A stretch of 64,000 nucleotides of DNA, from assembly GCA_050115495.1 (NCBI GenBank), contig JASFQK010000030.1, forward strand, positions 1 to 64,000, given 5' to 3'. This document shows, piece by piece, positions 16,184-29,105 of this stretch (position 1 is its first letter; each line of letters begins with the position of its first letter). Position numbers and translations under genes: made by a program. The DNA comes from Phycisphaerae bacterium (GTDB taxonomy: Bacteria > Planctomycetota > Phycisphaerae > UBA1845 > Fen-1342). The notes beneath the pieces are model-generated. The model had not been told where the DNA came from. It did no database searches and saw only the letters and a program-made list of their open reading frames with translations.

Positions 16184-17710
16184 ATGTTTGCCCGATTACA
16201 CAGCATGGCTCTGCAGGGCATCGAGGCCGTTCCTTGTGAGGTGGAGGTGGACGTCGCCGGGCGGGGCTTCGCCGCTCCGGCGCTCGTCGGCCTGCCGGAC
16301 TCGGCGGTGAAGGAGAGCCTCGATCGCATCCGCGCCGCCCTGCAGAATTCGGGGTTCGTCAAGCCGCGGACGCGCACCACCATCAACCTCGCCCCCGCCG
16401 ACATCCGCAAGGAAGGCCCCGCCTTCGACCTGCCCATCGCCCTCGGCTGGCTGCTGGCCGACGATCAGTTGCGCAGCGACGTCATCGACGAGCACTTGAT
16501 CGCCGGCGAACTGGCCCTCGACGGGCGTGTGCGGCCGATCAAGGGGGCCCTGTCGCTGGCCATGCTCGCCCGCGAGCGCGGCTTCCGCGGGCTCGTTGTG
16601 CCACGAGATAACGCCGAGGAAGCGGCGGTCGTCGACGGCATCGAGGTCTACGGCATCGACTCGCTGACGCAGGCGGTGAGCTACCTCGCCGGCGAGTTGC
16701 CGCTTGAACCGACATCGGTCGACCTGGACGCCCTGTTCGCTCGGGCGGCGAAGTACGACGTCGACTTCTCCGACGTCCGCGGGCAGGAACACGTGAAACG
16801 GGCTCTGCTCATCGCCGCCGCCGGCCGACACAACGTGCTGATGATCGGGCCGCCGGGAACGGGCAAGACGATGCTGGCCAAGCGGCTGCCGACGATCCTG
16901 CCGCCGATGACGCTGGCCGAATCGCTCGAAACCACGCGGATCTACTCGGCGTCGGGCCGGCTGCCGAGCCAGGCCAGCCTCATGGCCACGCGGCCCGTCC
17001 GCCAGCCGCACCACTCGATCAGCATTCCGGCCCTCGTCGGCGGCGGAACGGTGCCCTCCGCCGGCGAGATCTCCGCCGCCCATCACGGCGTGCTCTTCCT
17101 CGACGAATTGCCCGAGTTCACCCGCAGCGTGCTCGAATCGCTCCGCCAGGTCATGGAGGACGGCGTCGTCACCATCGCCCGCGCCCACAGCGCCGTCTGC
17201 TTCCCGGCGGATTTCCTGCTCGTGGCGGCGATGAACCCCTGCCCGTGCGGCTACTTCACCGATCCCCGGCGGCCGTGCAAGTGCTCCGCCCCGCAGATCG
17301 ACCGCTACCTGGCCCGCATCTCCGGCCCGTTGCTGGAGCGGATCGACATTCACATCGAGGTGCCCGCAGTGCCGGTAGCGGCCCTGCGCGACATGCAGCC
17401 GGGCACGGACAGCGCCACCATGCGTGAGCAGGCTGCCCGGGCCCAGGTGGTCCAGCGTGAGCGTTTCGCCGGCGGCACGACGACAAACGGCCGCATGACC
17501 TCGCGCGAGCTGCGCAAGCACGCCGCCATCGACGCCGATGGCGAGCGTATTCTGCGCCAGGCCGTCGGCGAGCTCGGCCTCAGCGCCCGCGCCCACGACA
17601 AGGTCCTCCGCGTCGCCCGCACCATCGCCGACCTGGCGGGCGAGAAGAACGTATCAGCGACGCACCTGTCCGAGGCGATTCAGTATCGGAGGCTGGATCG
17701 GAGTCTGTAA
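16184..17710 (+). CDS. comM: YifB/ComM Mg-chelatase-like AAA+ ATPase
   Basis: VGLPDSAVKES, INLAPADIRKEG, GPPGTGKT, LFLDELPEF, AAMNPCPCG, LSARAHDKVLRVARTIADL. Confidence 0.95.
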   Translation: MFARLHSMALQGIEAVPCEVEVDVAGRGFAAPALVGLPDSAVKESLDRIRAALQNSGFVKPRTRTTINLAPADIRKEGPAFDLPIALGWLLADDQLRSDVIDEHLIAGELALDGRVRPIKGALSLAMLARERGFRGLVVPRDNAEEAAVVDGIEVYGIDSLTQAVSYLAGELPLEPTSVDLDALFARAAKYDVDFSDVRGQEHVKRALLIAAAGRHNVLMIGPPGTGKTMLAKRLPTILPPMTLAESLETTRIYSASGRLPSQASLMATRPVRQPHHSISIPALVGGGTVPSAGEISAAHHGVLFLDELPEFTRSVLESLRQVMEDGVVTIARAHSAVCFPADFLLVAAMNPCPCGYFTDPRRPCKCSAPQIDRYLARISGPLLERIDIHIEVPAVPVAALRDMQPGTDSATMREQAARAQVVQRERFAGGTTTNGRMTSRELRKHAAIDADGERILRQAVGELGLSARAHDKVLRVARTIADLAGEKNVSATHLSEAIQYRRLDRSL

Positions 17711-17912
17711 CCGTGGCGGCGAGGCCGCACGGGTTGTTAACTGGGGAGCAGACGTCGGCGTTGGCGTCAGACGCGGTTGGTTTCCGGGTCTCGTGCGCGC
17801 GACCGGCTGGCCTGTGTATTCGTCAGACCCGCGGGTATCATACCGCCGGCTGCCGGGCGGGAGTGTCGTGCATGTCGCACGAGTCCGGCGCCGACTTACA
17901 GAGGGTCCAGCC

Positions 17913-19070
17913 ATGTTGTTGCGCAATCGCGCGATGTTGTTCGCGATCGGCACCGTCCTCGTCGACCTCGGTCTGTCGGCGGCGGCAACCGCCCAGGAGA
18001 AGGAAGCGACGCCCGACGAGGCTACGACGCAGCCCGCTAGGCTGACGGTCGGTGATCCGGCGCCGCCCGTGCAGGTCGAGAAGTTCCTGAAAGGTGACGC
18101 GGTCGAGGCGTTCAAGCCGGGCCACAGCTACGTCATCGAATTCTGGTCCACCTGGTGCGGTCCGTGCCGAGCCGGCATGCCCCATCTGACCGAGCTTCAG
18201 AAGAAGTTCAAGGACAAGGTCACTTTCGTCAGCGTGAACATCTGGGAGGACAAAGAGTATTCCGAGAAGACCCTCGCCAAAGTGCAGGAGTTCGTCAAGA
18301 AGAACGACGAGAAGATGGGCTATACCGTCGCTTACGACGGCGCGGCGAAGAAGATGGACACGGCCTATATGAAGGCCGCCAACGAGAACGGCATCCCGAC
18401 CGCGTTCATCGTCACCACCGACGGGAAGATTGGCTATATCGGCCACCCGCAGAATCCGCGTTTCGAGGAGACGCTCCAGCAGCTCGTCGACGGCACGTTC
18501 GACATAGCGAAGGCGATTGCGGCGTGCAAGGAAGAGCAGGAGCGCCAGGCGGCGTGGGAGAAGGCCTACGGCCAGTACGTCGCGTTGATGACCGAGGCCC
18601 GCGCGCTCGTCGAGGCCGGCAAGATCGACGAAGGCTTGGCCAAAATCGACGAAGCGGGGAAGCTCTTGCCCGACGCGGACCCGGCCGGCGTGGACATGCA
18701 GAAGTTCCACGTGCTGATATACGCGAAGGAATACGACCAGGCCTACGCCATCGCGGCTCGGCTCGTCGCGGGGCCGTTCAACGACAATGCCTCCGCACTG
18801 AACAGCATCGCCTGGTCGATCGTCGACCCCGAGGCCGCGATCATGAAGCCCGATCTGCCCCTCGCCTTCAAGGCCGCCGAGCGGGCCGTCGAACTGACCG
18901 AGTCCAAGGACGCCTCCATCGTCGACACGCTCGCCCGCTGCTACTGGCTGAAGGGCGACAAGGCGAAGGCCATCGAACTCCAGACGCAGGCCGTCGCGTT
19001 GTGCGAGGACAATCCGGCGATGAAGGAGTCGCTCCAGAAGACGCTCGACGAGTACAAGCAATTGCAGTAA
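17913..19070 (+). CDS. TlpA-family redoxin with C-terminal TPRs
   Basis: Signal peptide; LTVGDPAP; EFWSTWCGPC; GIPTAFIV; LNSIAW, DTLAR. Confidence 0.9.
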   Translation: MLLRNRAMLFAIGTVLVDLGLSAAATAQEKEATPDEATTQPARLTVGDPAPPVQVEKFLKGDAVEAFKPGHSYVIEFWSTWCGPCRAGMPHLTELQKKFKDKVTFVSVNIWEDKEYSEKTLAKVQEFVKKNDEKMGYTVAYDGAAKKMDTAYMKAANENGIPTAFIVTTDGKIGYIGHPQNPRFEETLQQLVDGTFDIAKAIAACKEEQERQAAWEKAYGQYVALMTEARALVEAGKIDEGLAKIDEAGKLLPDADPAGVDMQKFHVLIYAKEYDQAYAIAARLVAGPFNDNASALNSIAWSIVDPEAAIMKPDLPLAFKAAERAVELTESKDASIVDTLARCYWLKGDKAKAIELQTQAVALCEDNPAMKESLQKTLDEYKQLQ

Positions 19071-22830: not shown

Positions 22831-23325
22831 ATGGAACCGACACCCGAACTGTCGTCTTTCTACGCACTCCAACCAAACACGCTGACCTCTGACCGTCTGT
22901 ACCGCATCTTCATCACGCGGCAGGCGATCTGCGGGGCCTGGGTCGCTGGTCAGTTCCACAGCCGGGAATCAGCACAGCAGGTCCTGGTCGTCACGCTCGG
23001 CCTGCTGAGCTTCCTGGCCAGGCCGCTGGTCAACCGCTGGCTGCGCAAGCGAGAGGAGCGCGAGCAGTTCTACGATGCGCTCGACCCCGACGGCGCCGAG
23101 TTCCTCGAAGCCGACAAACGCAACTTCCGCCTGCTTCCGATGGACATCGACGGCGTGACCATCACGCAGAAGAAAAAGTTCTCCGGGCACGGCGTGCGCG
23201 GCCCCCGGCTCACGATCACCCGCTCGGACGGAAAGGCGCTCAAGCTGGTCGTCCTCCCGGAACATGAACCCCAGATCGTGCACACCGCCCTCTGCCGGCT
23301 TATACCCGGTGCCGAACTGGTCTGA
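22831..23325 (+). CDS. Hypothetical membrane protein
   Basis: Single TM segment; coding-like codon usage from ATG 22831. Confidence 0.6.
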   Translation: MEPTPELSSFYALQPNTLTSDRLYRIFITRQAICGAWVAGQFHSRESAQQVLVVTLGLLSFLARPLVNRWLRKREEREQFYDALDPDGAEFLEADKRNFRLLPMDIDGVTITQKKKFSGHGVRGPRLTITRSDGKALKLVVLPEHEPQIVHTALCRLIPGAELV

Positions 23326-23336
23326 GGATGGCGCCG

Positions 23337-23442
23337 TCAGGCGCGGCTGGGCAGCGGGACGTCCACCAGCAACGCCGCCGGAACGGGCGGAAACGCCAGC
23401 CGCACGCGGTAGCAGTCACAGTCCGCCGTCCTCCAGCCGAGG
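23337..23442 (-). pseudogene. Duplicated 3' end of the 27864-29105 gene (left direct repeat)
   Basis: 23350-23442 matches 27877-27969 (93 bp, 5 mismatches); LGWRTADCDCYRVRLAFPPVPAALLVDVPLP. Confidence 0.9.
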
Positions 23443-23469
23443 ACGTGAAACTCACGCCGTCTACCGGCC
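23435..23469 (-). promoter_or_regulatory. Putative bacterial SECIS element
   Basis: After UGA: lower stem GGCCGG/UCGGCU; upper stem GGCGUGA-GUU-UCACGUC starting at +12, loop G at +19. Confidence 0.6.
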
Positions 23470-23643
23470 TCATATGGGTCCTGTGCAAATGTCGCTCTCG
23501 CGTTGCGCGAAATACTTGCGGTCCTCCTCGTAGTGACACTTCTTGTATTTCTTCCCGCTGCCGCACCAGCAGGGGTCGTTGCGATCGAGCTTCCTTGCCG
23601 CTTCCGGCGGCCGTGGCCGAAAGAACCTGTCCCAGAATCCCAT
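23461..23643 (-). CDS. Small SEC-C motif protein, candidate selenoprotein (UGA at 23472-23470)
   Basis: [68 protein letters not shown] SD; absent from the ORF track. Confidence 0.75.
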
Positions 23644-23765
23644 CCGTACCTCTCCTGTCGTCGGTTTGCACTCACTCGCCTGTAATCAGGGTTGTCCGTG
23701 GTCCGTTGCACCCGAACTGGCCTGTGTCTGACCACCAGGCATCAGGCCGGGGAGCCACACTCGAC

Positions 23766-24359
23766 TCAGGGCTCTTCCACACCAAGAACGTCGCGAATAG
23801 CCTGCTTGATCGTTCCCTTGGGCAATGCCCCGGTCACCATCTGAGGCTTGCCACTGCTTGGCACAAAGAGCATCGTCGGAATGCTCCGGATGCCGAACAC
23901 GGCGGCCAGCTCGCGCTCAACACCTGTATCCACCTTGTAGATGCGGATTTTCCCGTCGTATTCCTGGACCAACTCGTCCAGGACGGGCGCCAGGACCTTG
24001 CACGGCGCGCACCAGTCCGCGTAGAAATCGACGATGCATGGCACGTCACCCTCAAACCGCCATTCCCTGTTCTGTTCGAAATTGAAGACTTTCTGCAGGA
24101 ATTCCGCCTTGTTCAGATGTTGCGTCATGATGACCTCACGTGAATCAGTGGAACCACTCGCGCCCTCGGTGCTGCGGAGCGACGAGACTTCGACGTTGTT
24201 GGTGCACTCGACCGAGCCGGCGCGTTCCCCTCACACCGGGCCCTCCCGAAGTTGGGTCAGGGCAAGAGCGGCAACCAACATGACCGGAACCAGGGCGGGA
24301 GCCGCCAGCAGGCGCCTGAGCAAGGAACGGTTCGCGGCGCGTTTCGTGCTGGACTGCAA
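23766..24359 (-). CDS. trxA: Thioredoxin (core 23766-24128) with an in-frame N-terminal extension across UGA 24233-24231; candidate selenoprotein
   Basis: DFYADWCAPC, GIRSIPT core is certain. AGGAG-TTG at 24359, hydrophobic segment, EGPV-U-GE, then an open frame into the Trx ATG. Confidence 0.75.
24201..24230 (-). promoter_or_regulatory. Putative bacterial SECIS element
   Basis: After UGA: GCUC-GGUC-GAGU apical hairpin (loop +18 to +21) with UGCACC on its 3' side, resembling the E. coli fdhF SECIS. Confidence 0.65.
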
Positions 24360-24500
24360 CGTTGTCTCCTGGCGTTTCGCTTCGCGTTCCTGTGCCTGAG
24401 CCGGAATGCCTGTCCGGGTCGTGCGAAGCTCGGCCCGGTTCGGGCTTCAACCAATGATCAAGGTCACGACGGTGACCGCCGAGTTCCACGGAAGCGCACG

Positions 24501-25856
24501 TCACGCTTGCGCGGCGAGGAGTCCGAGCGCCTCCTCGCAAGCCTCCACGATAGCGTTGCGCGCGGGGAAGAAACTCTGCCAGGGTTGGGCGCTGTAGCTG
24601 AGCCTGGCAAGCTGTTCCAGCGTCAGGCCCTGCTGAATCGCCAGAGTGATCGTGTCCACCTTGTCGGTCGTGGGGGTTTCGCTGAGAACCTGCCCGCCGA
24701 GGACACGTTCGGATTGTGCGTCAGCAACGATCTTGACTTTCAGTTTGGTGGCACCTGGCATCATGGGGAACAGGCTGGTCGTTGAGCCGTGGCCGCCCAC
24801 CACCTCGAAGCCGCGTTGCCGCGCAAGCTCCTCGGTAAAGCCGGTAGCGCCCACGCGATACTGGAAGGCGCACGTGGCAGCGCCGTTCAGGAAGCCCAGG
24901 TATTCGTCGGCAATCCCGGCGACGTTGCGGGCAGCCACTTTCGCCATGGGAACGGCATTGGTGGCCAGCTTCCCACCGACCGGCTTGCCATCGATGGCGG
25001 AATGGAAATGGCAATTGTCGCCGGCCGCGTACACGTCGGGGAGGCTGGTACGCATGCGTGCATCGACGACAATCCCATCACGCTCAACTGCGAGCTTCGG
25101 GTGCTCAAACAGGCCGACGTCGGGCTTCATGCCTACACTGAGACAGACGAAGTCTCTTTCCGGGTCAATGTCGATTGTGTCACCGTTGGTCAGTCTGACC
25201 TGGCAGACCTGCTTCTCGACGGTCTCCATCTTCTCGACGCCGACGCCCAGTCTGAGATGGATGCCCTTCTCGACGAGAACGTCGTGCAGGGGCATCGCCA
25301 TGTCTTCGTCGATCATGTTCGGCAGAACGTGGTTGGCGATATCGACGAGGTGCGTGTCGAGCCCCTTCTGTCGGTAGGCTTGGGCCTGCTCGATGCCGAT
25401 GGCGCCGGCGCCGATTACTGCTACTCTCCTGGCCCGTGCCTGGACGCGGCCAATCAGGGCGAGCATGTCGCCTTGGGTCTTTATGGTGAAGACGTTCCGG
25501 GCGGTCGCGCCGGGGATTGAAGGTCTGACCGGGACGGCGCCCGTTGCGAGGAAGAGTGTCTTGTAGCGAAAGACGGTTCCATCCGAGCCGGTCACCTCCT
25601 TGTCATCGAAGTTGACGTTGACGGCGTGAGTACGTACGAGGTTGACACCGACGTCGGTGACAAGCGAGTCCTTCTTGTACACCCTCTCGTGTTCGAAGAG
25701 CCCCTCAATCGCGTAGGGGATAGCGCAGTAAACCATCGAGTGCTCTTCCGGCCTGAGCATCGTGATGCTGGTCTCTAGCCGCAGCTTCCTGAGGGTCCGG
25801 CTGAACGTGATTCCGGCTGGTCCGCCGCCGATCACGAGTACATCTGACGTTACCAT
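24501..25856 (-). CDS. FAD-dependent oxidoreductase, CoA-disulfide reductase/NADH oxidase family
   Basis: VIGGGPAG; single-Cys YCAIPY; LATGA; VIGAGAIGIE; TSLPDVYAAGD. Confidence 0.9.
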   Translation of the reverse strand: MVTSDVLVIGGGPAGITFSRTLRKLRLETSITMLRPEEHSMVYCAIPYAIEGLFEHERVYKKDSLVTDVGVNLVRTHAVNVNFDDKEVTGSDGTVFRYKTLFLATGAVPVRPSIPGATARNVFTIKTQGDMLALIGRVQARARRVAVIGAGAIGIEQAQAYRQKGLDTHLVDIANHVLPNMIDEDMAMPLHDVLVEKGIHLRLGVGVEKMETVEKQVCQVRLTNGDTIDIDPERDFVCLSVGMKPDVGLFEHPKLAVERDGIVVDARMRTSLPDVYAAGDNCHFHSAIDGKPVGGKLATNAVPMAKVAARNVAGIADEYLGFLNGAATCAFQYRVGATGFTEELARQRGFEVVGGHGSTTSLFPMMPGATKLKVKIVADAQSERVLGGQVLSETPTTDKVDTITLAIQQGLTLEQLARLSYSAQPWQSFFPARNAIVEACEEALGLLAAQA

Positions 25857-25936
25857 CTGCGGAAAGCTCCCTGCTCGTCTGTACGGGTGTCGCCGTCGCT
25901 AAAGCGTCCGCCGCGAGCACACTACGCAGCCTGTTC

Positions 25937-25952
25937 TGCAATGCGCGCGCCG
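25937..25952 (-). promoter_or_regulatory. sigma54 (-24/-12) promoter
   Basis: CGGCGCGCGCATTGCA (GG-N10-GC) on the minus strand, ~80 bp upstream of the oxidoreductase. Confidence 0.7.
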
Positions 25953-26153: not shown

Positions 26154-27530
26154 CTACTCGCGCGGTTCGTGGATTCCGAACTCCGACATCCGTTTGTACA
26201 GCGTGGTTCTGCTAATGCCAAGTCGGCGAGCCGCCTTGGCGATGTTCCAGCCTGCCGCTGCCAGGACCTCTCGCACTCGTTCGGGCAATACGTCCGACCG
26301 GCCGCGCGCTCGTGACGAAGCCGGTGGGTCCTTGGCCAGCGGCTCCGCAACGAGGCCTTCGCGCCGCAGCAGTTCGGGCGGCAGGTGCCTGGGACGAATG
26401 AGGCCCCGGCGCGCTTTGACGAACGCATACTCGATAGCGTTCTCCAGTTCGCGCACGTTGCCCGGCCAGGGGTGATCGAGCACAAGCGCCAAAGCGTCTT
26501 CGTCGAGCCCGTCGATCTCTCTCCCGGTGCGTTCGCGGAACCTCTCGACGAAATGCTGGGCCAAAAGCGGGATATCAGCGCGCCGTTCACTGAGCTTCGG
26601 CAGCCGGATCGGCACAACCCGCAGGCGGTAGTACAAGTCCTGTCGGAAGTCGCCGGAGGATACCAACTCCATGAGCGGCCGGTTGGTCGCGGCGATCACT
26701 CGAATGTCGACCGCGATCGGCCGCTCGTCCCCCACGCGCTCGATCGTTCGCTCTTGAAGCACGCGCAACAGCTTGATCTGAATGTTGGCGGATATATCGC
26801 CGATCTCATCGAGGAAGATCGTGCCGCCGGACGCCGTTTCGAAGCGGCCTCGCTTGTCGCGGGAAGCTCCTGTAAACGCACCGCGGGTGTGTCCGAACAA
26901 CTCGCTTTCGAGCAGGCTCTCCGACAGAGCGGAGCAGTTCACGGGCACGAACGGCCCGGCGCCTCTGGGGCCCAAATGGTGAATGGCGCGCGCAACCAGC
27001 TCCTTGCCCGTACCGGTGTCCCCCTCGACCAGAACCGTCGCGTTCGAATCCGCGACCTCCTCGACCAGCTCGAACACGTCCTGGATCGCCTTGCTCTTGC
27101 CCATGATGTTGTGAAGCCGATAGCGCTCGCCGAGGTCACGCCGCAGGCTGACCAACTCGGTCACGTCACGGAAGATCACGACGCCGCCCCTTGCTTCCCG
27201 CTCACCTTCGCGAAAAACGACGCTGCGCATCGCGAAGACCCTTCGTTGCCCGGCGTGCGTTTCGACGGTCACCTCGTCGAAGTGGGTCGGTTGCCTCTTG
27301 GCGATCGACTCCCTCAGACGGGATCCCGGGGCGCAGATCTCCTCGCCGAGGAGGCAGGGGCATCCGTGGCTCAACGCTTCCGCTTTGGAGATCTCCAGGA
27401 GCCGGCAGGCAGCGCTGTTGATACCGATCACGTTGCCGTGGTCGTCGAGCGTGACGATGCCCTCGTCGAGGCTGTCAAGGACCGCCTCGAACTCAGCACC
27501 GTCCAGTACGTGGTGCCTCGGCCGGGCCAT
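26154..27530 (-). CDS. PAS-domain sigma54-dependent activator (Fis HTH)
   Basis: [50 protein letters not shown]. Confidence 0.95.
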
Positions 27531-27614: not shown

Positions 27615-27863
27615 CGCAGAACGACGTGCTCCTCCTGGTCTCACCCGGCCACTATGAGTCGGTTCGCGACAACCTGCTTAACAGCAATGTGTTACAGCGA
27701 TTCCGCCAACCGCCTGCCTCAGCGCGTAACACGGGCCTCAACATCACGCGGCCGACTGGCCAGGCGCCGCAGCTGACCGTCGTCCCGGGGCAGGCCCGCC
27801 GGCAATCCATGACGCGGCGTGCCGGCTCGTGCCCGGGACGGGATTGCTCTGAAGGCGGCGGCA

Positions 27864-29105
27864 TTACGTGCGGGTCGGCAGCGGGACGTCCACCAGCAAC
27901 GCCGCCGGAACGGGCGGAAAGGCCAGACGCACGCGGTAGCAGTCGAAGTCCGCCGTCTTCCAGCCGAGGCGCTCGCAGCAGTAGCTGATCAGCTCGCGGT
28001 AGCGGCCCATCTCGCGAATCGGTGGAACGTCCGGCCGGCACGATAGCCGCTCCACGCGTGCCGCGATTGGCAGCAGATCAGCCTCCGTGTAGTGCGTCCC
28101 CAGGTTCTCCGTGAACATGTCGCTCGCCAGCCGCAATCCCGGCGAGATCTCCCCAAACAACTCCCGGTTCAGAAATACGTCCATCACGACGAGCTTGGCC
28201 GGCGTCCGCAGCGGAGCCTTCGTGCCCAACCCGCCGTGCCGCTCGTCCGGATAGCACGGCTCCGCCCGGCGGATGACCTCGCCGGTGAGGCACGTCACCG
28301 ACTGCGCTTTGCTGACGCCCGACTCGGCGAGCACGTTGTCGATGATGCCGAACGGGCCGACGCAGCGCCGCACGGTCGGCAGCGGTTGTGAGCAGAACCC
28401 GGTCACCAACGGCACATCGAGCTGCGCCGCCCCCGGATCGATCGGCTCTCGCGGAAACTCACCGCGCACCTCGCCGGCGTCGTCGATCGTGTAGAAACGC
28501 GAGATGCGCCAGGGGACCTGCGGCCGCACGCGTCGCAGGTCGACGAAGCCGCGAATCACGGCGGCGTCGATCGTCTCGCCGTCGCCGGACGGTTGGATCA
28601 GGTAGGTGTGCACCTGCATGCGGGCCTGGACGCCCCAGATGTAGCTGTTCGCTTCGTAGGCGGTCTTGCGCTGCTCCAGCCCGACGTCGATGTCCGCCGC
28701 ACGGGTGTGCCCGTTGACTATCATGTCGAACAGCTTGCGGCTGCCCGCTTCCGACTGCATGAACGCCTGGAGATCCGCGAACGCCCGGCGGGCCTCGTCG
28801 ACAGCGGGGCGTGGGGCCTTGCCTCGGGCCGCAGCCCGCAGGAACAGCCGAATCCCGCGTTCGCCCGGCACGTACTTCATGGCCCGTAGCGGATCCCTGG
28901 GCTCGAGGACTTTCACGAACTTCCACGCCAGCCGGGAATCGACGCCGATGGACTGCACCAGGTCCGCCGCCCGCACGTCGTGATGCCCGACTAGCGAGGC
29001 GATGACCTCGGCGAGAGCGGCCCGCACGCGGGAGAGCACTTCGCGGGCCTTGGCCTCAAATGGGGAGAGGTTGGCGGCGTTGGCATTATCGACTGTCGTG
29101 GGCAT
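27864..29105 (-). CDS. Uncharacterised ~413-aa protein with N-terminal HTH-like region, paralog of 43366-44580
   Basis: RAADLVQSIGVDSRLAWKF; TACAAT 6 nt before ATG 29105; divergent from a PEP-CTERM gene. Confidence 0.8.
   Translation of the reverse strand: MPTTVDNANAANLSPFEAKAREVLSRVRAALAEVIASLVGHHDVRAADLVQSIGVDSRLAWKFVKVLEPRDPLRAMKYVPGERGIRLFLRAAARGKAPRPAVDEARRAFADLQAFMQSEAGSRKLFDMIVNGHTRAADIDVGLEQRKTAYEANSYIWGVQARMQVHTYLIQPSGDGETIDAAVIRGFVDLRRVRPQVPWRISRFYTIDDAGEVRGEFPREPIDPGAAQLDVPLVTGFCSQPLPTVRRCVGPFGIIDNVLAESGVSKAQSVTCLTGEVIRRAEPCYPDERHGGLGTKAPLRTPAKLVVMDVFLNRELFGEISPGLRLASDMFTENLGTHYTEADLLPIAARVERLSCRPDVPPIREMGRYRELISYCCERLGWKTADFDCYRVRLAFPPVPAALLVDVPLPTRT

What the first reader, a model, noticed from the sequence alone, without database searches (positions are those of the whole stretch)
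23435..25952. Hidden selenoprotein redox operon: two adjacent genes share G-P-[IV]-UGA-G plus SECIS-like hairpins
Seen: the sigma54-fronted minus-strand operon is a CoADR/NADH-oxidase-type flavoprotein, then a thioredoxin, then a SEC-C mini-protein. The last two have unrelated domains, yet each has a UGA in the same peptide context (EGPV-U-GE and TGPI-U-GR). Each UGA is followed by a hairpin with a G-initiated apical loop at +18/+19. Established: bacterial SECIS elements sit immediately 3' of the Sec UGA (E. coli fdhF has a GGUC loop at about +19). Inference: this is an NAD(P)H-to-thiol/selenol relay that automatic annotation would truncate. I do not know of a described system with this composition.
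Basis: partly seen in the sequence, partly recalled or inferred. Interest (0 to 1): 0.88.

Follow-up and report, generated by a model that had tools for sequence, protein, structure and literature searches.

The report
Hidden selenocysteine-tailed SEC-C mini-protein
One of the two proposed selenocysteine codons is real: a 60-residue metal-binding mini-protein almost certainly ends in Cys-x4-Sec-Gly-Arg and belongs to a widespread selenoprotein family that annotation cuts short, whereas the codon in front of the thioredoxin is most likely a stop in a broken leader.

Summary
The operon, both TGAs and both hairpins are in the sequence, and the genome has selA, selB, selC and selD. The two TGAs differ.

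SEC-C gene (23643-23461): a DNA search with no constraint on the tail found TGA at this column in 105 of 106 evaluable homologues. Usually a Cys lies five residues before it and a second, freely varying stop two codons after it (77 of 105). A G-loop hairpin follows near +19. Six paralogues lacking the Cys end with any stop and lack the motif. This is a selenoprotein family with a U-X-X-stop tail; NCBIfam and a 119-family catalogue do not list it. This scan found the family before on other DNA (e1-5226437).

Pre-thioredoxin TGA (24233): the only syntenic copy has TGG plus a 2-nt deletion there. No protein homologue covers the leader, and the thioredoxin has its own start. It is not Sec.

G-P-[IV]-U-G occurs in 1 of 105 family members, and flavoprotein plus thioredoxin flank only 2 of 45 loci. 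The shared motif and the conserved relay therefore fail. No Cys homologue or experimental proof was found.

The parts
26154..27530 (-). PAS + sigma-54 activator + HTH_8 gene (458 aa), probable activator of the operon
   Evidence: Pfam PF00158, PAS, PF02954; 86% identical copy in the same position in L072
25938..25951 (-). sigma-54-type -24/-12 site (GG-N10-GC)
   Evidence: Pattern match here, at the same place in L072, and in front of the thioredoxin in L073; function inferred
24501..25856 (-). FAD-dependent pyridine nucleotide-disulfide oxidoreductase (451 aa), CoADR/NADH-oxidase type, single redox Cys44 in YCAIPY; no Sec
   Evidence: PF07992/PF02852; TIGR03385 227 bits, below its 578.8 cut-off; a YCA[ILM]PY motif was matched in 116 of 120 listed homologues
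24231..24359 (-). 42-codon signal-peptide-like leader (AGGAGA + TTG) ending in TGA 24233-24231; a broken or decaying N-terminal extension, not a Sec site
   Evidence: L072 has TGG plus a 2-nt deletion here; no protein homologue; only L072's genome matches clearly among 71 genomes
23766..24128 (-). Thioredoxin (120 aa, W-C40-A-P-C43) with its own GAGG ribosome-binding site; ordinary Cys enzyme
   Evidence: TIGR01068 99.3 bits, cut-off 96.8; 5 of the 6 hits are 120 aa and all 6 start at this Met
23461..23643 (-). SEC-C mini-selenoprotein gene, 60 aa: N-terminal amphipathic-looking segment, C25-x-C27-x8-C36-H37 knuckle, helix 38-52, tail C53-T-G-P-I-U58-G-R-stop
23470..23472 (-). Sec codon TGA (U58)
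   Evidence: TGA in 105 of 106 evaluable metagenome homologues and 11 of 11 Cys-tailed Desulfobacterota-centred loci
23442..23458 (-). SECIS-like hairpin: stem GGCGUGA/UCACGUC, loop GUU at +19
   Evidence: a matching hairpin in 81 of 103 homologues against 2% of shuffles
23293..23442 (.). 150-bp direct repeat (84% identical to 27820-27969); the two copies bracket the activator-to-SEC-C cassette
   Evidence: blastn; homology with L072 runs from 27733 to 23437, close to the inner edges of the repeats

Best explanation
The 60-codon gene encodes a selenoprotein. SelB-Sec-tRNA bound to the hairpin at +12..+28 decodes TGA 23472 as Sec; two more residues are added and TAG ends the chain. Shown by comparison: the conserved TGA column, second stop, hairpin and Sec machinery. 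Inferred from homology: the SecA-type knuckle (CxCx8CH with Ser29 and Tyr33) binds Fe or Zn. Inferred from anatomy: a short, possibly membrane-seeking N-terminus and a basic helix present a flexible C53-x4-U58 tail. That tail cycles between selenenylsulfide and thiol/selenolate, acting as a small redox arm that keeps metal or Fe-S sites of partner proteins reduced and is recycled by a thioredoxin. Here it has been placed at the end of a sigma-54 thiol-redox cassette (flavoprotein, Cys thioredoxin). Elsewhere it sits most often in NifB/NifX-DUF5320-ARMT1-MinD/4Fe-4S clusters. The TGA before the thioredoxin is a nonsense change (TGG in the syntenic copy) in a decaying signal-peptide leader. Odds: Sec at U58 about 0.93; pre-Trx TGA not Sec about 0.92; redox-arm role about 0.5.
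For: Genome has selA, selB, selD (with its own TGA) and tRNA-Sec above cut-offs. The metagenome pattern fixed only the knuckle: 120 matches, 110 distinct, 4 cut by contig ends; 105 TGA and 1 TAA, the TAA locus being L193, where the Cys-to-TGA segment is deleted. These loci span about 30-70% GC. Cys lies 4 residues before the TGA in 87 and 5 before in 15 of 105. U-X-X-stop in 77 of 105, with the second stop free (TAA 37, TAG 19, TGA 21). The residue before that stop is Arg or Lys in 61 of 77, using all six Arg codons. Strict G-loop hairpin in 81 of 103, against 2% of shuffles and 3-4% of ordinary ORF ends in this genome. Internal control: 11 of 11 Cys-tailed loci end TGA-X-X-stop, while 6 paralogues without the Cys end TGA 1, TAA 3, TAG 2, without the motif. 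Carrier genomes: selA in 16 of 19, and the 3 misses have selB. The knuckle matches solved SecA and YchJ metal-binding domains. The model has a helix at 38-52 and a low-confidence tail. Pre-Trx column.
Against: No Cys-for-Sec homologue was found among 225 short SEC-C proteins examined, so the classic Cys/Sec-pair test is not met. selA co-occurrence discriminates poorly: the 6 no-Cys control genomes also have selA, and so do 42 of 44 sampled genomes of this order. RNAalifold on a MAFFT alignment gave no consensus structure because loop sizes put rows out of register, and the pair types were read from fitted stems. The strict hairpin test misses this genome's SelD site. Many loci are related. There is no proteomic or labelling evidence. 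Gene neighbourhoods vary, so the physiological role is weakly constrained. The pre-Trx verdict rests on one syntenic MAG, whose deletion could be an assembly error (its TGG would still be Trp, not Cys). The N-terminal amphipathicity is modest against shuffles (median p 0.10) and that segment has pLDDT below 50.
Confidence: 0.8

Rival explanations
1. Sec is inserted, but the C-x4-U tail is a soft-metal binding site. The protein is a tiny two-site metallochaperone or metal buffer (knuckle plus thiolate/selenolate tail) for cofactor-assembly operons, not a redox catalyst.
For: The commonest neighbourhood is NifB/NifX, DUF5320, ARMT1-like and MinD/4Fe-4S genes (17 of 129 loci; 7 of 45 with long flanks). 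PMC13188914 suggests metal-ligand roles for Sec in UXX-star proteins (passage). A subgroup carries one more Cys, as CxxxCxxx-end (13 proteins).
Against: Thioredoxins neighbour 6 of 45 loci, and a rubrerythrin neighbours L091. A spacing of 3-5 residues is tolerated, as expected of a flexible redox arm.
Confidence: 0.3
2. The TGA is an ordinary stop, followed by a back-up stop and a hairpin with another job (terminator or RNA-stability element). The protein is 57 aa.
For: No Cys homologue. Read-through adds only three residues. TGA is the commonest stop in this genome (1378 of 2986 long-ORF ends).
Against: The first stop is TGA in 105 of 106 while the second varies freely. The two codons between them show Arg/Lys selection. 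The hairpin is at a fixed distance with a G loop and has no TTTT run after it in 81 of 103. Paralogues without the Cys lose all of this.
Confidence: 0.05
3. One reading: thioredoxin and SEC-C protein are both selenoproteins in a dedicated NAD(P)H to thiol/selenol relay.
For: The leader is in frame with the thioredoxin in this genome and has an RBS and a TTG start. The TGA is confirmed in a contig of a run that may be the window's source. The three genes are also together in L072.
Against: TGG and a frameshift at that column in L072. No leader in L073. No homologue of the extension. The hairpin is not the MFE fold and fails the bSECIS model. No Cys partner near the TGA that is kept in L072. Composition seen in 2 of 45 loci.
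Confidence: 0.05
4. The main output is regulatory. Ribosome pausing or termination at the terminal UGA, depending on Sec-tRNA supply, tunes downstream genes or switches the mini-protein between a 57-aa and a 60-aa form that act differently on SecA/SecB/ribosome partners.
For: Sec lies three codons from the end. The gene is often inside operons. The SecA knuckle binds SecB and ribosomes (bioRxiv 10.1101/613315, abstract and passages).
Against: The strictly kept Cys five residues before Sec points to chemistry in the peptide. Here the gene is last in its operon.
Confidence: 0.1

Closest known systems
UXX-star selenoproteins (families 1 and 2, NF041114 and NF041211; HUGP/GUXX-star fusion NF041212), listed in PMC13188914 Table 1 from Haft and Tolstoy 2025
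   Same: Sec three residues from the C-terminus (U-X-X-stop in 77 of 105), missed by gene callers. The definition of the motif is recalled from the 2025 paper, which the library does not hold.
   Different: The body is a SecA-type knuckle, not a glutaredoxin-like or methyltransferase domain. There is one Sec, paired with Cys as C-x4-U. None of 53 read-through members matched any UXX-star model at E<=0.1.
SecA C-terminal metal-binding domain (Pfam PF02810; PDB 1OZB, 1SX0, 1TM6) and the YecA/YchJ domains
   Same: CxCx8CH with the conserved Ser and Tyr. These bind Zn or Fe (bioRxiv 10.1101/613315, abstract and passages). YchJ uses such cysteines as a redox switch (PMC13377102, passages).
   Different: Free-standing 60-aa protein with a helix and a Cys/Sec tail. 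SecA chains matched only through their C-terminal knuckle, so kinship of the N-terminus with SecA's amphipathic helix is a resemblance, not a result.
Bacterial SECIS consensus (3-9 nt loop, 4-16 bp stem, G in the first two loop positions, 16-37 nt spacing; PMC13188914 passages)
   Same: The SEC-C hairpin meets all four constraints.
   Different: It lies mostly past the protein's own stop codon, so it is free of coding constraint. The pre-Trx hairpin fails the model.
CoA-disulfide reductase / NADH oxidase family (TIGR03385, NF046103); a Sec form with UGxP is catalogued in PMC13188914
   Same: Single redox residue near position 44, same domain set.
   Different: Below the curated cut-offs; Cys, not Sec; a distinct YCAIPY / YSAQPWQ subfamily.

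Membership tests
Bacterial selenoprotein (SEC-C gene) | Host encodes SelA, SelB, SelD and tRNA-Sec | tested here: met
Bacterial selenoprotein (SEC-C gene) | TGA conserved at one column in homologues | tested here: met
   105 of 106; 11 of 11
Bacterial selenoprotein (SEC-C gene) | SECIS hairpin at a conserved distance with a G loop | tested here: met
   81 of 103 against 2% of shuffles; loop start at +18 to +21 in 89 of 103; alignment-based folding gave no structure
Bacterial selenoprotein (SEC-C gene) | Sequence constraint continues past the TGA | tested here: met
   Arg/Lys at +2 in 61 of 77 with varied codons, then a free stop
Bacterial selenoprotein (SEC-C gene) | Cys-containing homologues at the Sec column (usual, not universal) | tested here: not met
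   None among 225 short SEC-C proteins from two searches
Bacterial selenoprotein (SEC-C gene) | Selenium incorporation shown by experiment | not testable with these tools
   Needs 75Se labelling or MS
Bacterial selenoprotein (pre-thioredoxin TGA) | TGA or Cys codon at the column in homologues, in frame | tested here: not met
   TGG plus a 2-nt deletion in L072; leader absent in L073
Bacterial selenoprotein (pre-thioredoxin TGA) | bSECIS model | tested here: not met
   MFE loop is UCG
UXX-star selenoprotein families 1 and 2 | U-X-X-stop terminus | tested here: met
   U-G-R-TAG here; 77 of 105 in the family
UXX-star selenoprotein families 1 and 2 | Match to NF041114 or NF041211 | tested here: not met
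   0 of 53 members at E<=0.1
SEC-C / SecA-like metal-binding domain | CxCx8C[CH] with conserved Ser and aromatic residue; PF02810 above cut-off | tested here: met
   46.4 bits against 20.4; invariant columns
SEC-C / SecA-like metal-binding domain | Binds Zn or Fe | not testable with these tools
   By homology only
CoA-disulfide reductase (TIGR03385) | Score above curated cut-off | tested here: not met
   227 against 578.8 bits
Thioredoxin (TIGR01068) | Score above cut-off; WCxPC | tested here: met
   99.3 against 96.8 bits

The most novel reading that the evidence does not exclude
The family is a Sec-only, free-standing redox arm. It is a SecA-tail mimic that docks on membranes, SecB or ribosomes through its N-terminus and knuckle, senses Fe or Zn, and delivers a TrxR-like C-terminal Cys/Sec couple in trans to partner enzymes such as this tail-less flavoprotein. 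That would link selenium redox chemistry to protein export or metallocofactor assembly in anaerobes.
Probability: 0.12. Interest if true: 0.8.

Novelty: new variant of a known kind. Interest (0 to 1): 0.55.

Why it matters
It adds a multi-phylum selenoprotein family (Planctomycetota, Desulfobacterota and Nitrospirota by DNA; more lineages by protein label) that databases store as 57-61-aa 'SEC-C domain' proteins cut at UGA. It appears to have no Cys version, so Cys/Sec-pair searches cannot find it. Its SECIS lies mostly outside the coding region and gives over a hundred natural variants of a minimal SelB-binding hairpin. At 60 residues it is easy to make and test, and it joins a well-studied SecA module to selenium chemistry. 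The result also removes a false lead: the thioredoxin is not a selenoprotein, and the operon is not a conserved two-Sec system.

Tried and rejected
(1) Sec before the thioredoxin: rejected.
(2) Shared G-P-[IV]-U-G motif: 1 of 105.
(3) Conserved three-gene relay: 2 of 45. None of the six same-genus genomes had this thioredoxin, and their best flavoprotein match was 33% identical.
(4) A C-terminal Sec on the flavoprotein: the residues after its TGA differ between the window and L072. Homologues end at varied lengths, many in an ECV tail; their DNA was not checked.
(5) RNAalifold covariation: no structure.
(6) A codon-score scan for the genome's selenoproteome missed SelD, so it was not used as a control.
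(8) Expression: five short contigs from one RNA run match the operon exactly at depth 2-4, none covering either TGA; this does not show transcription.
(9) SecA N-terminus kinship: no match in solved SecA chains.
(10) No complex prediction was run, because no binding is claimed.
Full report
1. Observation. The minus strand carries a PAS/sigma-54 activator (27530-26154), a GG-N10-GC site at 25951-25938, a 451-aa flavoprotein (25856-24501), a 120-aa thioredoxin (24128-23766) and a SEC-C mini-gene (23643 onward). Reading TGA as U gives ...[10 protein letters not shown]-stop for the mini-gene. A TTG leader...LREGPV-U-GER..., is in frame with the thioredoxin. The thioredoxin has its own GAGG+ATG 34 codons after that TGA. 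The genome (92% complete) has selA, selB, selD with one internal TGA, and a tRNA-Sec, all above curated cut-offs. Related loci come from MAGs labelled Planctomycetota or Phycisphaerales.

2. The SEC-C TGA. A protein search returned 635 hits; the closest end almost uniformly at 57 residues, four residues after a Cys. To test the codon without bias I scanned metagenomes with a pattern that fixed only the knuckle and a downstream D-x-x-Y-F. Of 110 distinct sequences, 4 ran off the contig, 105 had TGA as the first in-frame stop and 1 had TAA. In that one (L193) the stretch from the Cys to the TGA is deleted and TAA is the usual second stop.

The last Cys lies 4 residues before the TGA in 87 cases, 5 in 15 and 7 in 1; it is missing in 2. 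The next stop follows after 2 residues in 77, 3 in 12, 5 in 14 and 9 in 1 (1 cut off). The two-residue class uses TAA 37, TAG 19 and TGA 21 times. The residue before the second stop is Arg or Lys in 61 of 77, with all six Arg codons used. The loci run from about 30% to 70% GC.

Folding +7..+38 gave a median z of -2.9 against base shuffles, with the loop starting at +18 to +21 in 89 of 103. A strict test (G-started loop at +17..+22, at least 5 contiguous pairs) passed 81 of 103, against 2% of shuffles and 48 of 1378 TGA, 50 of 1135 TAG and 16 of 473 TAA ends of long ORFs in this genome. Limits of these tests: the strict test misses this genome's SelD site, the pair types were read from fitted stems, and RNAalifold found no consensus on an out-of-register alignment.

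An independent sample of 251 genomes from the phylum of a Desulfobacterales carrier gave 17 hits. Eleven carry the Cys and all end TGA-X-X-stop, with a G-loop hairpin in the MFE fold of 10; one of the 11 is the centre genome already seen as L076. Six lack the Cys and end TGA 1, TAA 3, TAG 2, without the two-residue tail. Named genome loci from Planctomycetota, Nitrospirota and Desulfobacterota also all have TGA (rows were picked for a Cys near the stop, not for the codon).

selA was found in 16 of 19 carrier genomes, and the three misses have selB. This is only consistent evidence: the six control genomes also have selA, as do 110 of 301 genomes of the class and 42 of 44 sampled from the order. 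G311, flagged unpublished, enters only the class tallies. No Cys-for-Sec homologue turned up among 225 short SEC-C proteins, even when a profile with Cys at that column was used.

3. The pre-thioredoxin TGA. L072 carries the same four genes at about 82% DNA identity. Its leader keeps the RBS, the TTG and the hydrophobic stretch, but reads GTG-TGG-GGG at the column. A 2-nt deletion follows and puts the leader out of frame with the thioredoxin. L073 (thioredoxin plus SEC-C) has a sigma-54-type site instead of the leader. A protein search with the read-through residues 1-110 found six thioredoxins, none aligning to residues 1-77. A DNA search of 71 genomes found the leader clearly only in L072's genome. 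The proposed GGUC hairpin is not the MFE fold and fails the published bSECIS constraints, which about two thirds of random sites pass. The simplest reading is a signal-peptide-like extension broken in two different ways. G-P-[IV]-U-G occurs in 1 of 105 SEC-C members, so the shared context is chance.

4. Context. Among 45 family loci with at least 1.4 kb on both sides, 6 have a thioredoxin, 4 a related flavoprotein (two only 26% identical) and 2 both (this window and L072). Seven lie in NifB/NifX-DUF5320-ARMT1-MinD/4Fe-4S clusters (17 of all 129 loci). PAS/sigma-54 activators recur. In sampled Desulfobacterota-type genomes the gene sits among unrelated housekeeping-type genes. The cassette is missing from the six same-genus genomes searched and is bracketed by a 150-bp direct repeat, which suggests acquisition as a block (inference). 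The flavoprotein has one redox Cys (YCAIPY) and scores below the CoADR and NADH-oxidase cut-offs. Such enzymes act on CoA-disulfide, O2/peroxide or persulfides rather than on thioredoxin (recalled).

5. Mechanism. Shown: the recoding signature. By homology: the CxCx8CH knuckle with Ser29 and Tyr33 matches solved SecA and YchJ domains, which bind Zn or Fe (bioRxiv 10.1101/613315; abstract and passages seen). Modelled: helix 38-52 and a flexible tail, mean pLDDT 73. Inferred: C53 and U58 form a reversible selenenylsulfide, recycled by thioredoxin (about 0.5). The alternatives are a soft-metal site (0.3) or a mainly regulatory element (0.1). The N-terminus looks amphipathic (median moment 0.55 over residues 1-9, median shuffle p 0.10), like the lipid-binding N-terminal helix described for SecA (bioRxiv 10.1101/2021.03.26.437172; passages seen), but this is a weak lead.

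6. Comparison with what is known. Table 1 of PMC13188914 (119 families; seen through section 7 part 1 and passages) has no PF02810 entry. BSepDB's main text has no 'SEC-C' (PMC13326102; passages; its supplement was not read). Searches for selenoprotein + PF02810 and selenocysteine + 'SEC-C motif' found no paper, and selenoprotein + UXX-star found only the review. NCBIfam 20.0 has no family-level match for 53 read-through members, and public records name members 'SEC-C domain-containing' or hypothetical at the truncated length. Haft and Tolstoy 2025, which defined UXX-star (recalled), is not held, so a passing mention there cannot be excluded. The protein works like a UXX-star selenoprotein but is not a member of the modelled families. 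This scan reported the same family from another genome (e1-5226437); my reading was recorded before that look-up, and the evidence here is my own.

7. Verdict. One real, uncatalogued C-terminal selenoprotein; one false Sec call; an operon that is a local arrangement rather than a conserved system. New variant of a known kind; interest 0.55.

Noticed in passing
window 23293-23442 and 27820-27969: 150-bp direct repeat (84%), a copy of the 3' end of the 424-aa gene at 29138-27864, brackets the activator-flavoprotein-thioredoxin-SEC-C cassette. Homology with L072 stops near both copies, and the cassette is 62% GC against 65-66% in the flanks.
   Followed up: partly
window 24359-24129 (-); L072 5289-5520: Signal-peptide-like leader kept at about 57% identity but broken differently in two genomes; possibly the remnant of an exported thioredoxin.
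   Followed up: partly
L285-L290: Paralogous SEC-C mini-proteins with a basic Gly/Arg/Lys tail, no terminal Cys and ordinary stops, in genomes that have selA.
   Followed up: partly
proteins P0070, P0087, P0094, P0096, P0102 and others: Subgroup ending CxxxCxxx, probably CxxxCxxxU; DNA not inspected.
   Followed up: no
flavoprotein homologues P0273-P0387: Many end in a YPDLxECV-like tail with a penultimate Cys that the window's copy lacks.
   Followed up: no
G000 C4:66045(+), C24:38902(-), C9:127472(-): Other in-frame TGA candidates with coding-like sequence on both sides (RFC-U-GH, GCG-U-TM, CVGK-U-EE); unverified.
   Followed up: no
G000 C3:95769-95868: ARAGORN calls a second tRNA-SeC (tca) here, which the Rfam tRNA-Sec search did not list.
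   Followed up: no
L043, L074, L075, L157, L161, L165, L170, L196: The SEC-C selenoprotein gene sits inside NifB/NifX-DUF5320-ARMT1-MinD/4Fe-4S operons, in some loci behind a PAS/sigma-54 activator.
   Followed up: partly
window 17538-19070 (+): Redoxin/TlpA-type thioredoxin-fold gene (WCGPC) about 4 kb from the cassette.
   Followed up: no
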